Below are positions 22,095 through 25,995 of a DNA stretch of 64,000 bases, one piece after another (the first letter of the stretch is position 1; each line of letters begins with the position of its first letter). A model generated the notes under the pieces. It was not told the DNA's origin. It saw only the letters and a program-made list of their open reading frames with translations, and made no database searches. The DNA is from Escherichia phage FriedrichZschokke. The stretch lies in sequence record MZ501067, one strand, 5' to 3'. The position numbers were made by a program, and so were the translations under genes.

Positions 22095-23063
22095 TTATTT
22101 CAGAAGAGTAACCTCAGCAATTTCTTCCCAACCGTTTTTGTCGGTCATAATAAAGTCAGCAAGATAAAGAGCAGTACGCAGTGAAACATTACGTAAACGG
22201 TTAACATTGACTTTCATCCATGATAATGCTTTATAAGTTTCTTCATCAGAAAGACCGCGTTTTTGCATCATGTCAGTTGAAAGAATAACATCTTCAACCC
22301 TGACCATAATTTCTTCATTAGTGTGAACACCCAAATCCAAATAAACTGAGCGGGACACTAATGCTTGTAAATGTGGAGCAAGTTTAGTACCACGGTCTAA
22401 TTCGCGGTCAATGTCAACGTTTGTGATAAAAACAATCGTTCCTTTAAATTCAAACTCACGCTCAATGCCTTTTTCTTCTAAGTAAGAAGATGCGGTGCTC
22501 CAGCAGACTTTACGGGTCTCTCCAGTGTCCAGAGCGGCTTTTAGAAGATTAAGAATGTCCATATCAGAGAAAACATCCACATCATCAATCAAAAGGACAT
22601 AATTCTCTTCACGATTATTCCAAAGCTGTTCATAAAGACCGATACCAGAGATTTTACCATTAATGCTTTTATATTCAATGTATCCAATATCATTTGCTTT
22701 ATTTAAAGCTTTATCTAAAGAATACGTTTTACCAATACCCGCCGCACCAGAGATAATTAATGAACGAATGTTTCCGTTAATAATACCATTCGTCATCATT
22801 CCCATAACATTAAATCTTTTATTAATGCGGGTTTTCATGTCTTCATACGATTCTTTAACTTCTTCAACTTTTACACCATCATATGAAATGTCTGATTTGT
22901 AAACCCAAACACCGCGACGCTTACCGTCAATTTCAACAAAAACTTTACCATCTCCTTGTGCATCTACCGGAGCATTATCTGGGAACCATTCGCCTAAGAG
23001 CTCAAAAGTTCCAGAGATTTCTTTACCGAAGTAGATACCCTTATTGATAGTTACAGTTTTCAT
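22095..23063 (-). CDS. P-loop ATPase of unknown function (nrdC.10 position)
   Basis: 322 aa ORF with Walker A GAAGIGKTYS and Walker B-like LLIDDVD. Confidence 0.65.
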   Translation of the reverse strand: MKTVTINKGIYFGKEISGTFELLGEWFPDNAPVDAQGDGKVFVEIDGKRRGVWVYKSDISYDGVKVEEVKESYEDMKTRINKRFNVMGMMTNGIINGNIRSLIISGAAGIGKTYSLDKALNKANDIGYIEYKSINGKISGIGLYEQLWNNREENYVLLIDDVDVFSDMDILNLLKAALDTGETRKVCWSTASSYLEEKGIEREFEFKGTIVFITNVDIDRELDRGTKLAPHLQALVSRSVYLDLGVHTNEEIMVRVEDVILSTDMMQKRGLSDEETYKALSWMKVNVNRLRNVSLRTALYLADFIMTDKNGWEEIAEVTLLK

Positions 23064-23120: not shown

Positions 23121-23321
23121 TTATTTTGACATTTCTTCGATGTCACGACGATACCCGTCACGAACTTCACGAAGAGCTTCAAGGCCACACATAGGCTCGA
23201 TACCAGTAATGTGAACTTGATTAATCTGATACTCTACATCTTCTAACTGAGCGAAAACATAACGACGTTCAGCTGCACACCCAGATTTAGCTTTACCGAA
23301 ACGTTTATTCAAAGTAGTCAT
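23121..23321 (-). CDS. Hypothetical protein
   Basis: 66 aa ORF downstream of an early promoter. Confidence 0.45.
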   Translation of the reverse strand: MTTLNKRFGKAKSGCAAERRYVFAQLEDVEYQINQVHITGIEPMCGLEALREVRDGYRRDIEEMSK

Positions 23322-23410: not shown

Positions 23411-23438
23411 AATAAAAAAGGGAGCCCGAAGGCTCCCT
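23411..23438 (-). terminator. Rho-independent terminator with UUCG tetraloop
   Basis: GGGAGCC-CGAA-GGCTCCC followed on the minus strand by UUUUUU. Confidence 0.6.
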
Positions 23439-23439
23439 A

Positions 23440-24452
23440 TCATTTATAATAACTTCGGTGGTTTTCAAGATAGACCTTCTCAAGGAAGTCATCCCAGAAA
23501 CTCATGTCTACTGTTTTAGGCATACCGTTCTTAGAAGCTTCAGTAGATGCTGCTTCTACTTGATCGACCACATCTTCCAAAAACTCTTGAACTGTTTTAA
23601 ATGGATGTTTACCCAACTTCACGTCGAGAATAAATGGAGCATCTTGAAGTGGATAGACTAAGTCACCAGTTTTGTAAATTTCCAATAGTTGGAGTCCACC
23701 ACGACAAGCATGACTTAGTGCTTTCCAATCAATGCCTTCATTGGCTTCGGCCTTACGAGCACGTTCACCGTATTCAGCATCTAATTTGTTCAGTGACTGC
23801 TTAAGCTCAATAAGAGAAAGCGTTGTCTGATATTTACGACCCAACACAGTGTAGAACGTTTGTGGGCCTGTTTTCTCATGATTATGGAACACCCATTCAC
23901 AGAATTCGTTTTCTGGAAGACGATGCTTAATATCTTCAACTTTAGTACGACGCTGCTTAATGGAACCGTCTTCTTGGTAATCAACCATTGCTCAGGGATT
24001 TGATTAACTACTTTCAATACATCACGTAATGCAGCCAAACGAGAACCCTTGACGCCGTATTTAGAAGCTTGCTTGCGGACATATCCTAAATATGATTTCA
24101 TGTTAGTCGTATAAAAACGAGAACGGTTGTCTTGAATAAACTTCCACACATCAGGCAAATCGGATTTAACCACTAGTTCAGGTGGAGTGTGAAGCATATC
24201 CAACGCTACAGTTTCACCATCTGCTGCTAATTTAAAGAAATATTTAAGACTGTATAGTTCATGGTCAATATCATCTTTAGTGTTTTTAGATGATGTATTG
24301 TTAGTATTTTTACTCATATGCTCTTTAACATTTCCGATAAGAATATCACGAGCAGGAGGAACAAAGATTTCTTTAAAATCTACATCAGATTCTGGGGTAG
24401 AAGTTCCATAAAGATGACTACCAAAATAGCTTTTCATTACTGTTTTCATCAT
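23440..24452 (-). pseudogene. Pol-beta-superfamily nucleotidyltransferase-fold protein, apparently split by a -1 frameshift near 23986-23995 (~150 aa N-terminal part plus 182 aa C-terminal part)
   Basis: N-terminal G[S]x10DxD motif YFGSHLYGTSTPESDVDF; after residue ~155 the upstream frame becomes low-complexity while the overlapping frame (ORF 23440..23988) is protein-like; TGA in the downstream frame lies 6 nt before its ATG. Confidence 0.45.
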
Positions 24453-24910
24453 TCAGCCTTATATTCAATAACAGGACATACTTTAGCTTTACGAGCTTTT
24501 AAAAATTCAACGATAACCGATTTCTTGGGTTGAATAGGAGGTAAACCTTTATACGCCCTATCAATATTTTCTACGTGTAAAGCATAATCCTTTTTCCATT
24601 TATAATCTTTATATTTTTCACGCAAATGTGCAGGAATAACAAATGAACCGATAATAAGTAAAACAACCAAAAGCGCAAGTATAAATGCTGATGGAAGCAA
24701 AGTCCATAAACTACCAAAAATAATCCAACGTTGTAGGCTTTCTGCACAAATAATTGTTAGCCCTACGAGTATAGCACATCCAAAAATAGAAACGAAAAAT
24801 GTAGGAATGGCAATAGACCAAAAATATGCGCACAGTGTCTTAGGTCGTTGCCATTCATCGTTAAACAATTTGAATAATTTATAGTGCCAAGAGTTTTCAT
24901 TAATAATCAT
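24449..24910 (-). CDS. Membrane protein (multiple transmembrane helices)
   Basis: 153 aa ORF with hydrophobic segments. Confidence 0.5.
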   Translation of the reverse strand: MIINENSWHYKLFKLFNDEWQRPKTLCAYFWSIAIPTFFVSIFGCAILVGLTIICAESLQRWIIFGSLWTLLPSAFILALLVVLLIIGSFVIPAHLREKYKDYKWKKDYALHVENIDRAYKGLPPIQPKKSVIVEFLKARKAKVCPVIEYKAE

Positions 24911-24912
24911 AA

Positions 24913-25434
24913 TTATTCTTTCATTGAAGGCGTAACGGTTGTTAAATACTTAATCATAGCTTCAGCTTCTGATTTTGATAGTGAAATTTCTTCACCGTTT
25001 TGGCGAATAGAAACAAAATCTGGATGACGATCACCACCAGCTTTTAAAACACACATATAAGTATCAGCTTCGCCTTCAATATTTGAAATGATTGAAGCAG
25101 TTCCACATGAATGAGGTTTTTGATAAATCAATACAGCTTTTCTTCCACCATTTGACTGTTCATAGGCTTTTAATACATCAAGCAAATCAGTTCTTTTATC
25201 AATAGCTAAGATGTTATTTTCATCTTCAATATTAAATCCTTCGGATACTTCATAAAGAGTTACCCATAAATCACCGATGTCAATAACAGCATTTACTTTT
25301 CCACGGCTTTCAAGAGTATGACAAATTTTCTTGATTTCGTCATAACTCATTTTAATAATATCATCTCCTTGACTAAGGAAGATGTCATTTTTAAATTCAA
25401 CACGAATTAAACCGCTTCCACTTGAAATAAACAT
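24913..25434 (-). CDS. Hypothetical protein, tandem paralog A
   Basis: 173 aa ORF; C-terminus and GFNIE motif resemble the adjacent ORF. Confidence 0.5.
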   Translation of the reverse strand: MFISSGSGLIRVEFKNDIFLSQGDDIIKMSYDEIKKICHTLESRGKVNAVIDIGDLWVTLYEVSEGFNIEDENNILAIDKRTDLLDVLKAYEQSNGGRKAVLIYQKPHSCGTASIISNIEGEADTYMCVLKAGGDRHPDFVSIRQNGEEISLSKSEAEAMIKYLTTVTPSMKE

Positions 25435-25440
25435 ATTTCC

Positions 25441-25995
25441 TCACTTTGAAATCATAGTTGGAATAACAGAATCAAGATAAGTCTTTAGTGCAATAGCTTC
25501 GTCTTTGGTAAATGTGACAATATGTGCTCGAGAATCATCAATTTGACGAATAGTTAAGACATCTCCATCTTCATAACATTTTGATACGTTTAAAACAGTT
25601 TCATCATTCTGATTGCAAGCGTTAGTAATAATAGCATTGCAATTTTTAAACCATTTTAAACTATGTTTTCTTTCATTAGAATAATAAAAATATTTAATCT
25701 TATCTATAAAACTATCCCAATGGATAACTGATAAGCATATTGACTCGCTTTCAATATTAAATCCTGGGCATGAAGAATAAAAATGAATTTTATGCTCATC
25801 ATTAATGCTTACAATTTTATCAGTATAAGGATTTTCAATTTGGGTTAAATGAATGATTTCACTAGGCGTAAAATATAGCATATCGTCTTCTTGTGTCAAA
25901 CGATACATATTATTTACTTTTTCTATAGCCAATTCACCAAAAAGTGAACTAACTTCTAATACTAATCGTTTCATATTAATCCTTTTTATTGGCAC
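25441..25995 (-). CDS. Hypothetical protein, tandem paralog B
   Basis: 184 aa ORF; C-terminus similar to paralog A. Confidence 0.5.
   Translation of the reverse strand: MPIKRINMKRLVLEVSSLFGELAIEKVNNMYRLTQEDDMLYFTPSEIIHLTQIENPYTDKIVSINDEHKIHFYSSCPGFNIESESICLSVIHWDSFIDKIKYFYYSNERKHSLKWFKNCNAIITNACNQNDETVLNVSKCYEDGDVLTIRQIDDSRAHIVTFTKDEAIALKTYLDSVIPTMISK

What the first reader, a model, noticed from the sequence alone, without database searches (positions are those of the whole stretch)
23440..24452. Frameshift-split nucleotidyltransferase gene in the variable locus upstream of rI
ORF 23790..24452 opens with a textbook Pol-beta-superfamily motif (YFGSHLYGTSTPESDVDF, i.e. G-S-x10-D-x-D) and reads as a globular protein for about 155 codons, then turns low-complexity. 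The overlapping -1 frame (ORF 23440..23988) is protein-like for 182 codons. Together they would make a ~335 aa protein with an NTase core plus a helical C-terminal domain, the architecture shared by cGAS/DncV-like, OAS-like, CCA-adding and minimal NTases. No X_XXY_YYZ slippery heptamer is visible at the junction, so a real frameshift mutation or an assembly error is more likely than programmed frameshifting. Counting ORFs after nrdC, this locus sits where T4 carries mobD. A phage NTase in a variable locus could act in anti-defence signalling or tRNA 3'-end repair, but specificity cannot be read from the sequence.
Basis: partly seen in the sequence, partly recalled or inferred. Interest (0 to 1): 0.6.

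Follow-up and report, generated by a model that had tools for sequence, protein, structure and literature searches.

The report
Frameshifted copy of T4 gene nrdC.11
The two overlapping reading frames are the two halves of a well-conserved T4-type phage gene (nrdC.11, an RNA-end nucleotidyltransferase of the RlaP family), broken in this one phage by the loss of a single G, so the finding is real but ordinary.

Summary
Window 23440-24452 (minus strand) holds the orthologue of T4 nrdC.11, a 336-aa Pol-beta-type nucleotidyltransferase of Pfam family RlaP (PF10127). It is split by a 1-nt deletion (GGG to GG, window 23985-23986) between codons W155 and V156.

- **Identity of the halves:** both are 97-98% identical to T4 NrdC.11. 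Apart from the missing G, the 1301-base region around the gene matches phage JLBYU31 exactly.
- **Rarity of the allele:** none of 485 matching phage records and no IMG/VR contig carries this deletion. Homologues occur in 1501 phage records, and 1437 of them cover at least 80% of the protein.
- **No recoding signal:** there is no slippery heptamer, no homopolymer run and no unusual RNA structure at the junction.
- **Source:** the 220-aa ORF is exactly QXV79201.1 (bas41_0212) of Escherichia phage FriedrichZschokke (Bas41). That collection was sequenced on Illumina, typically at 50-100x. No other frame-breaking indel lies inside a gene in the aligned parts of the window. A real, very recent loss-of-function mutation is therefore more likely than an assembly error.
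the T4 counterpart is nrdC.11, not mobD.
- **Dispensability:** several other independent null alleles of this gene exist in public genomes.

Interest is low.

The parts
23985..24449 (-). 5' segment of the nrdC.11 orthologue in its native frame. It covers codons M1-W155 in T4 numbering, counting from the second ATG at 24449. An extra in-frame ATG lies at 24450-24452. This segment is the NTase core plus the helices up to about residue 149.
   Evidence: The ORF list gives the coordinates. BLASTP to T4 NrdC.11 residues 1-156 gives 97.4% identity. Pfam RlaP scores 41.9 bits. Relatives annotate the start at the second ATG.
24378..24422 (-). Pol-beta nucleotidyltransferase active-site motif, G10-S11 ... 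D22-x-D24.
   Evidence: The sequence can be read directly. G10, S11, S21, D22 and D24 are invariant in a 75-sequence family alignment.
23985..23986 (-). Lesion site. GG remains where all relatives have GGG, the run formed by TGG (W155) plus the first G of GTT (V156). It is a 1-nt deletion.
   Evidence: Alignments with JLBYU31, R5505, FriedrichMiescher, T4, slur07 and pSs-1 all show it. None of 485 matching phage records carries the deletion allele, and no IMG/VR contig does either.
23790..23984 (-). Out-of-frame tail of the truncated product (LITKKTVPLSS...SLSSH) with its stop codon at 23790-23792.
   Evidence: The translation is. The stretch has no counterpart in T4 NrdC.11.
23440..23985 (-). 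3' segment of nrdC.11, codons V156-K336 plus the stop codon, now in the -1 frame relative to the 5' segment. It encodes the beta subdomain and the conserved C-terminal helical domain. The listed ORF2 starts at an ATG (23986-23988) that the deletion itself brought into this frame.
   Evidence: BLASTP to T4 NrdC.11 residues 156-336 gives 97.8% identity. Invariant residues R230, K243, H247, R250, P267 and K278 lie in this segment. The start-codon context is poor.
23419..23438 (-). Intrinsic-terminator-like hairpin (AGGGAGCCTTCGGGCTCCCT followed by TTTTTT) directly after the gene's stop codon. It makes nrdC.11 the last gene of its transcription unit.
   Evidence: The terminator scan finds it. The same feature is annotated as a terminator in phage R5505.

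Best explanation
The region is the orthologue of T4 nrdC.11 in Escherichia phage FriedrichZschokke (Bas41).

**What the intact protein does.** It is a 336-aa Pol-beta-superfamily nucleotidyltransferase of the RlaP family. By analogy with the characterised Pseudomonas RlaP enzymes, it is inferred to add one or two nucleotides to the 3'-OH of damaged RNA. That would let tRNAs trimmed by host anticodon nucleases be religated in usable form.

**What happened here.** One G of a GGG run has been lost between codons 155 and 156.

**Consequence for translation (inferred).** Ribosomes starting at the normal start make the NTase core (residues 1-155) followed by 63-64 nonsense residues. The beta subdomain and the conserved C-terminal helical domain are not joined to it. 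That domain forms the substrate cleft and packs against the core in PfRlaP. The downstream half has only a fortuitous ATG with a poor ribosome-binding context, so it is probably not made.

**Net result.** The gene is most likely a very recent, strain-specific loss-of-function allele of a dispensable accessory gene. It is followed by a terminator, so no polar effect on downstream genes is expected.
For: **Shown**
- Orthology and synteny with T4 nrdC.11, which lies between nrdC.10 and the mobD.1 region.
- The lesion is a single-base deletion. It is the only difference from JLBYU31 across 1301 bases, so no secondary decay has accumulated.
- RlaP membership by Pfam, above the curated cut-off, and a full-length match to PHROG 388.
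- Homologues are nearly all single proteins of 310-350 aa: 3322 cluster representatives, and 1437 of 1501 phage records cover at least 80% of the protein.
- Invariant residues lie on both sides of the break.
- The AF2 model of the 99%-identical intact protein (pLDDT 89.6) places the break at the start of a beta subdomain, upstream of the helical domain.
- No recoding signals are present.
- The 220-aa ORF equals QXV79201.1 of Bas41.
- BASEL genomes were sequenced on Illumina NextSeq, typically at 50-100x.
- No other uncompensated frame-breaking indel lies inside a CDS in the parts of the window that aligned to close relatives.
- T4 tolerates deletion of nrdC.11-mobD.3.
- Independent null alleles exist in slur07, pSs-1 and BYEP02. 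Further truncated forms appear among database entries.

**From the literature**
- The activity and structure of RlaP, and the naming of T4 NrdC.11 as a member, come from preprint PMC12776372.
Against: - No reads are available, so a consensus error at the GGG run cannot be excluded.
- The allele is unique to one record, with no independent assembly carrying it. That is what an error would also look like.
- The biochemical function of T4-type NrdC.11 has not been tested. It sits in a different similarity cluster from the assayed Pseudomonas enzymes, and the Pfam profile matches only its N-terminal part (positions 23-142 of 249).
- Inactivity of the truncated product is inferred, not shown.
Confidence: 0.75

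Rival explanations
1. Sequencing, assembly or consensus error. The real phage has GGG and an intact nrdC.11, and the split exists only in the deposited sequence.
For: The deletion sits in a short homopolymer and is the only difference from JLBYU31 over 1301 bases. No other record or contig shares it. The exact 220-aa product is known from only one contig.
Against: The genome comes from Illumina NextSeq data, typically at 50-100x, and a three-base run is not error-prone on that platform (my own knowledge). Comparison of the aligned parts of the window with close relatives shows no other uncompensated frame-breaking indel inside a gene. A generally error-prone assembly would be expected to show several. 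Other T4-like genomes carry different null alleles of the same gene, so real inactivation is plausible.
Confidence: 0.2
2. Functional split gene. The N-terminal NTase fragment and the C-terminal fragment are made separately and assemble into an active enzyme. The C-terminal fragment would be translated from the ATG that the deletion brought into frame.
For: The deletion places ATG directly before V156, so ORF2 begins exactly at the junction. The break lies in a T4-type-specific insertion (residues about 131-239) that is absent from the 232-aa Krischvirus orthologue, so it is not inside the conserved core.
Against: The only Shine-Dalgarno-like element is GAG, 2 nt upstream of that ATG. ORF1 ends 199 nt further downstream, so translational coupling is not possible. 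The N-terminal fragment carries a nonsense tail of 63-64 residues. The listed family members are almost all single chains of 310-350 aa, with no sign of a conserved two-gene arrangement; shorter entries look like fragments.
Confidence: 0.03
3. Programmed -1 ribosomal frameshifting or transcriptional slippage restores a full-length NrdC.11.
For: The downstream half is in the -1 frame relative to the upstream half, and the two ORFs overlap by 199 nt.
Against: The overlap zone has no X_XXY_YYZ heptamer in any frame, and no A/T run of 5 or more or G/C run of 4 or more. The downstream RNA folds no better than shuffles (z -0.51). The -1 frame is closed by TGA one codon upstream of the junction. None of the close relatives examined here uses two frames at this site.
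Confidence: 0.02

Closest known systems
Bacteriophage T4 NrdC.11 (NP_049709.1, annotated 'nucleotidyltransferase', 336 aa)
   Same: It is the same gene. Each half is 97-98% identical at the protein level. The position is the same, downstream of nrdC.10, and relatives have the same 1011-nt length.
   Different: The window copy lacks one G between codons 155 and 156 and is read as two ORFs. In T4 the next gene upstream is the homing endonuclease mobD. Here that place is taken by a 153-aa membrane protein and a MobD.1 paralogue.
RlaP nucleotidyltransferases (Pfam PF10127), with PfRlaP and PaRlaP of Pseudomonas characterised in preprint PMC12776372
   Same: The Pfam match is above the gathering score. 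The G-S and D-x-D motif is present. The architecture is an N-terminal NTase domain plus a C-terminal helical domain ending in a long helix (compared). The preprint places T4 NrdC.11 in this family, in cluster 5.
   Different: The T4-type protein is longer, with an inserted module of about 110 residues (about 131-239) that includes a beta subdomain. No RNA ligase gene lies among the immediate neighbours. Activity of the T4-type enzyme is untested, and the window copy is broken.
Krischvirus (RB49-like) 232-aa orthologue, for example phage MIZ4 WNA15009.1
   Same: [quoted passage not shown] It also matches RlaP, covering profile positions 24-198 of 249.
   Different: It lacks T4-type residues about 131-239. 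It shows what the minimal intact enzyme looks like. The Bas41 break falls inside the region it lacks, but the frameshift still removes everything downstream.
Kanamycin nucleotidyltransferase ANT(4') and the Hailong HalB nucleotidyltransferase (nearest solved structures)
   Different: Sequence identity is only 10-14%, TM-scores are low (0.24-0.30), and the substrates differ. These matches show the fold, not family membership.

Membership tests
T4 nrdC.11 orthologous group | High sequence identity to T4 NrdC.11 over the whole length | tested here: met
   ORF1 is 97.4% identical to residues 1-156 and ORF2 is 97.8% identical to residues 156-336. After restoring the G, the translation reads identically to the JLBYU31 protein.
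T4 nrdC.11 orthologous group | Conserved position: downstream of nrdC.10, same strand, followed by a terminator | tested here: met
   The neighbouring ORF at 22095-23063 is 99% identical to T4 NrdC.10. The T4 gene map is and the terminator.
T4 nrdC.11 orthologous group | One uninterrupted ORF of about 328-336 codons | tested here: not met
   The gene is split into ORFs of 220 and 182 aa by a 1-nt deletion. The window therefore holds a disrupted allele of this gene.
RlaP (Pfam PF10127) | Profile match above Pfam's gathering score | tested here: met
   The repaired protein scores 43.8 bits and the window ORF1 scores 41.9 bits, against a cut-off of 23. Nearly all listed homologues carry PF10127; the only exception seen is a truncated fragment.
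RlaP (Pfam PF10127) | Pol-beta NTase catalytic motif: G-S, D-x-D and a further conserved acidic residue | tested here: met
   G10, S11, D22, D24 and D62 are invariant, and D84 is invariant or nearly so, in alignments of 70-75 sequences. All are present in window ORF1.
RlaP (Pfam PF10127) | N-terminal NTase domain joined to a C-terminal helical domain in one chain | tested here: not met
   The feature is met in the intact orthologue, by the AF2 model, by hhalign to the 232-aa form and by Pfam coverage 24-198 of 249 in that form. In the window the two domains lie in different frames.
RlaP (Pfam PF10127) | Gene neighbourhood with an RNA ligase (the origin of the family name) | tested here: not met
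   The neighbours are an AAA-like protein, a 66-aa ORF, a membrane protein and y05I-like proteins. One distant phage homologue lies 4.3 kb from an RtcB gene. T4's own RNA ligase and Pnkp genes lie elsewhere in its genome (my own knowledge), and I did not look for them in the window.
RlaP (Pfam PF10127) | Adds one or two NMPs to the 3'-OH of RNA | not testable with these tools
   This activity is reported only for PfRlaP and PaRlaP.
Programmed -1 ribosomal frameshift site | Slippery heptamer X_XXY_YYZ in the overlap zone | tested here: not met
   No such heptamer occurs in any frame within 23793-23991.
Programmed -1 ribosomal frameshift site | Stable downstream RNA structure | tested here: not met
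   The MFE is -21.5 kcal/mol against a shuffle mean of -20.0, z -0.51.
Programmed -1 ribosomal frameshift site | Two-frame arrangement conserved among relatives | tested here: not met
   None of 485 records shares the allele. Relatives encode one frame.
   PADLOC gives no hit at E up to 0.01. No CD-NTase appears among the best Pfam, NCBIfam or fold matches.

The most novel reading that the evidence does not exclude
Loss of NrdC.11 may not be neutral. [quoted passage not shown] Several other independent null alleles of nrdC.11 also exist in public T4-like genomes. NrdC.11 activity could therefore be costly, or could be sensed by some host defence, so that its loss is selected and contributes to that escape. 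Nothing here links the two observations. Bas41 differs from its relatives at many other sites, and Tin is reported to target the phage ssDNA-binding protein.
Probability: 0.04. Interest if true: 0.6.

Novelty: already known. Interest (0 to 1): 0.15.

Why it matters
It matters little in itself. This is a strain-specific inactivating mutation, or less likely a sequencing error, in a known, conserved but dispensable accessory gene of T4-like phages.

The practical value is threefold:
- **Annotation.** In the Bas41 record the 220-aa piece is labelled only as a hypothetical protein. The locus would be better annotated as a disrupted nrdC.11 (RlaP family nucleotidyltransferase).
- **A ready-made mutant.** Bas41 is probably a natural nrdC.11 null in a widely used reference phage collection, and near-isogenic intact relatives exist. 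That could be convenient for testing the proposed role of phage RlaP enzymes in repairing tRNAs trimmed by anticodon nucleases such as RloC.
- **Dispensability.** The recurrence of different null alleles supports the idea that the gene is not needed on laboratory hosts.

Tried and rejected
- **Programmed frameshifting or slippage:** rejected. There is no heptamer, no homopolymer run and no stimulatory RNA structure, and relatives do not share the arrangement.
- **Two independently conserved overlapping genes:** rejected. The listed homologues are almost all single-chain proteins of 310-350 aa, and 1437 of 1501 phage records cover at least 80% of the protein.
- **Position equals T4 mobD:** rejected by the T4 gene map and BLASTP.
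- **Error-prone assembly:** I looked for other frame-breaking indels by aligning the window to FriedrichMiescher, R5505 and FelixPlatter. All other indels not divisible by three are either compensated within a few bases or intergenic.
- **Sequence search of the PDB:** the single sequence gave nothing. The 75-sequence profile gave only one insignificant hit (E 0.21). The PfRlaP crystal structure did not turn up in these PDB searches.
- **First structure prediction:** a shallow alignment of sequences 77-88% identical gave an unusable model (pLDDT 54.9). A second run with 70 diverse homologues worked (pLDDT 89.6).
- **Other libraries:** NCBIfam and PADLOC gave no meaningful hit.
- **Exact look-up of the 220-aa product on contigs:** nothing found, although the cluster look-up did find it. 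The 182-aa ORF2 and the 219-aa version of ORF1 are not in the protein collection.
- **Literature:** 'nrdC.11' occurs in only four papers, none functional.

Full report
**1. What is in the sequence**

Two ORFs lie on the minus strand exactly where the finding says: 23790..24452 (220 aa) and 23440..23988 (182 aa). They overlap by 199 nt, and the second is in the -1 frame relative to the first. The first opens with MMKTVMKSYFGSHLYGTSTPESDVDF and matches Pfam PF10127 (RlaP, 'RNA repair pathway DNA polymerase beta family') at 41.9 bits against a cut-off of 23.

**2. What gene it is**

Megablast of the region against 50,697 phage records finds 589 records, nearly all Tequatrovirus and other T4-like phages. 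The best is 99.9% identical. In those relatives the same stretch is one CDS of 1011-1014 nt, often annotated 'nucleotidyltransferase'.

In T4 itself that CDS is nrdC.11 (NP_049709.1, 336 aa). It lies between nrdC.10 and the homing-endonuclease gene mobD.

BLASTP gives these matches:
- ORF1 residues 2-157 match NrdC.11 residues 1-156 at 97.4% identity.
- ORF2 residues 2-182 match NrdC.11 residues 156-336 at 97.8% identity.
- The neighbouring 322-aa ORF is 99% identical to NrdC.10.
- The ORF at 25441-25995 is 84% identical to MobD.1.

The window has no mobD. In its place are a 153-aa membrane protein and a MobD.1/y05I paralogue.

**3. The lesion**

Alignment with three close relatives shows a single missing base: CAATGGGTTGAT in the relatives against CAATGGTTGAT here. 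That deletion is the only difference from phage JLBYU31 across all 1301 aligned bases.

In T4 numbering, the run GGG is formed by TGG (W155) plus the first base of GTT (V156). The remaining GG is at window 23985-23986. My interim notes used the numbering of the window ORF, which starts one ATG earlier. The numbering used here counts from the second ATG, as in T4 and the relatives.

The product from the normal start is therefore NrdC.11 residues 1-155 followed by 63-64 out-of-frame residues.

By coincidence the deletion brings the ATG of caATGg into the downstream frame. That is why the ORF finder lists ORF2 as starting exactly at the junction. That frame is closed by TGA one codon upstream. 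The only Shine-Dalgarno-like element is GAG, two bases before the ATG, so independent translation of the 3' half is unlikely (inference).

**4. Is it recoding?**

No.
- The 199-nt overlap zone holds no X_XXY_YYZ heptamer in any frame, and no A/T run of 5 or more or G/C run of 4 or more.
- The 113 nt from the junction onward fold no better than shuffled sequence (z -0.51).
- None of 485 phage records matching a 60-nt probe across the junction has the deletion allele. The best matches are all 60 of 61, meaning they carry the extra G.
- No IMG/VR contig holds the deletion junction.
- tblastn with the intact protein finds homologues in 1501 phage records of Escherichia, Klebsiella, Aeromonas, Acinetobacter, Vibrio and other hosts. 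Of these, 1437 cover at least 80% of the protein in one place.
- An exhaustive search of 1.84 billion cluster representatives finds 3322 relatives. Those listed are almost all single chains of 310-350 aa, aligned end to end.

The alternative of 'two independently conserved overlapping genes' is thus refuted.

**5. Real mutation or assembly error?**

The 220-aa ORF1 product is, residue for residue, QXV79201.1 (bas41_0212, 'hypothetical protein') of Escherichia phage FriedrichZschokke. This is Bas41 of the BASEL collection, a 165,574-bp genome. The window is therefore from that genome or an identical one.

The BASEL paper states that genomes were sequenced on Illumina NextSeq 550 and assembled in Geneious, typically at 50-100x.

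I looked for other signs of indel errors by aligning the window to FriedrichMiescher, R5505 and FelixPlatter. Every other indel not divisible by three is either compensated within a few bases (alignment wobble in diverged stretches) or lies between genes. The deletion at 23985 is the only uncompensated one inside a coding sequence.

A three-base run is not a typical Illumina error site (my own knowledge). I therefore put about 0.75-0.8 on a real mutation in the sequenced stock and about 0.2 on an error. Only the reads or a PCR product can settle it.

The rest of the gene is undamaged and identical to an intact orthologue. If the mutation is real, it is very recent.

**6. What the intact protein is**

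*Sequence families.* Pfam places the protein in RlaP (43.8 bits for the repaired protein). PHROG 388 ('nucleotidyltransferase') covers it end to end. NCBIfam and PADLOC give nothing meaningful, so there is no support for a CD-NTase signalling enzyme.

*Conserved residues.* An alignment of 75 diverse homologues has invariant G10, S11, S21, D22, D24, N56, D62 and Y131 before the break. After it, R230, K243, H247, R250, P267 and K278 are invariant (similar).

*Predicted structure.* An AlphaFold model of the 99%-identical T2 protein, built with 70 diverse homologues, is confident (pLDDT 89.6, pTM 0.76). It shows four parts:
- an alpha/beta NTase core (residues 1 to about 95);
- helices up to residue 149;
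- a small beta subdomain (154-208);
- a helical C-terminal domain (213-335).

*A minimal form.* The Krischvirus orthologue (phage MIZ4) has only 232 aa. It aligns to T4-type residues 1 to about 130 and 240-336 (hhalign probability 100%). In that short form the Pfam RlaP profile spans both domains (positions 24-198 of 249). T4-type residues about 131-239 are therefore an inserted module. The Bas41 break lies inside that module, but because it is a frameshift, it disconnects the whole conserved helical domain.

**7. How it most likely works**

A December 2025 preprint (PMC12776372) characterises two Pseudomonas RlaP enzymes. According to it:
- They add one or two NMPs to the 3'-OH of RNA and prefer damaged RNAs.
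- The crystal structure has an N-terminal NTase domain and a C-terminal helical domain that form a cleft.
- The very C-terminal helix packs against the NTase domain.
- The authors propose that RlaP restores nucleotides removed by 'smart' anticodon nucleases such as RloC before religation.
- They explicitly list T4 NrdC.11 as an RlaP, in cluster 5 of their similarity network.

By inference, intact NrdC.11 complements T4's tRNA repair enzymes. One distant phage homologue I looked up lies 4.3 kb from an RtcB ligase gene, and another lies next to an HD-domain protein.

In Bas41 the truncated product keeps the catalytic motif. It lacks the cleft-forming domain, with its invariant basic residues, and the C-terminal helix. 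I infer it is inactive and probably unstable.

The gene is followed directly by a terminator-like hairpin (23419-23438) and then a promoter-like site for the next ORF. No polar effect is expected.

**8. Dispensability and recurrence**

T4 tolerates deletion of nrdC.11-mobD.3 (PMC9825161). Other public genomes carry different null alleles of the same gene:
- slur07 has A5 reduced to A4 at about nt 163.
- pSs-1 has a 1-nt deletion at about nt 686.
- BYEP02 has a 77-nt insertion at nt 198.
- An E. coli-labelled contig of 168.9 kb has 130-aa and 199-aa pieces.
- Logan assemblies contain a form ending at E153, which suggests a stop at Q154, and a MobD.1::NrdC.11 fusion that suggests a deletion.

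Set against roughly 750 distinct intact sequences in the closest 90% cluster alone, breakage is rare but recurrent. That pattern fits a conserved accessory gene that is not needed on laboratory hosts.

**9. Verdict**

This is a disrupted copy of a known gene in a public phage genome. It is not a new kind of feature and not a recoding site.

The only mildly interesting thread is that Bas41 is a natural nrdC.11 null in a widely used phage collection. [quoted passage not shown] I found nothing that links the two.

Noticed in passing
window 24449-25434 (minus strand): T4 has the HNH homing endonuclease mobD between nrdC.11 and mobD.1. This window instead has a 153-aa predicted membrane protein (24449-24910, PHROG 944) and a 173-aa y05I-type protein (24913-25434). 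The latter is only 26% identical to T4 MobD.1. The true MobD.1 orthologue follows at 25441-25995 (84% identical).
   Followed up: partly
window 23121-23321 (minus strand), promoter-like site 23388-23360: A 66-aa ORF (PHROG 6200, unknown function) sits between nrdC.11 and nrdC.10. It has its own promoter-like site just after the nrdC.11 terminator. T4 has only a 114-nt gap there, while the close relatives annotate the ORF.
   Followed up: no
whole phage (source of the window): The window's 220-aa ORF equals bas41_0212 of Escherichia phage FriedrichZschokke (Bas41). [quoted passage not shown] No cause is given.
   Followed up: partly
L007 (slur07) 1068-2077; L008 (pSs-1) 767-1776; L009 (BYEP02) 921-2008: Three other deposited Tequatrovirus genomes carry different disruptions of nrdC.11: a 1-nt deletion in an A5 run at about nt 163, a 1-nt deletion at about nt 686, and a 77-nt insertion at nt 198. 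Other database entries add a 130+199 aa split, a form ending at E153, and a MobD.1::NrdC.11 fusion.
   Followed up: partly
L013 (Krischvirus phage MIZ4) 2501-3199: A natural 232-aa 'minimal' NrdC.11 lacks T4-type residues about 131-239. This shows that the T4-type protein carries an inserted module that includes a beta subdomain of unknown role.
   Followed up: partly
window 22095-23063 (minus strand): The NrdC.10 orthologue next door (322 aa) gives only sub-threshold matches to AAA and STAND NTPase families and to clamp-loader PHROGs. It has no PADLOC hit. Its function, and any functional link to NrdC.11, is unknown.
   Followed up: no
L012 6001-7002 and 11346-12572; L011 6001-7445: A 41%-identical homologue on a metagenomic phage-like contig lies 4.3 kb from an RtcB RNA ligase gene. 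Another, 37% identical, is directly followed by an HD-domain protein.
   Followed up: no
window 23986-23994 (minus strand): The deletion itself brings an ATG into the downstream frame directly before V156, with a TGA closing that frame one codon upstream. This makes the 3' half look like a self-standing ORF to any ORF finder.
   Followed up: yes
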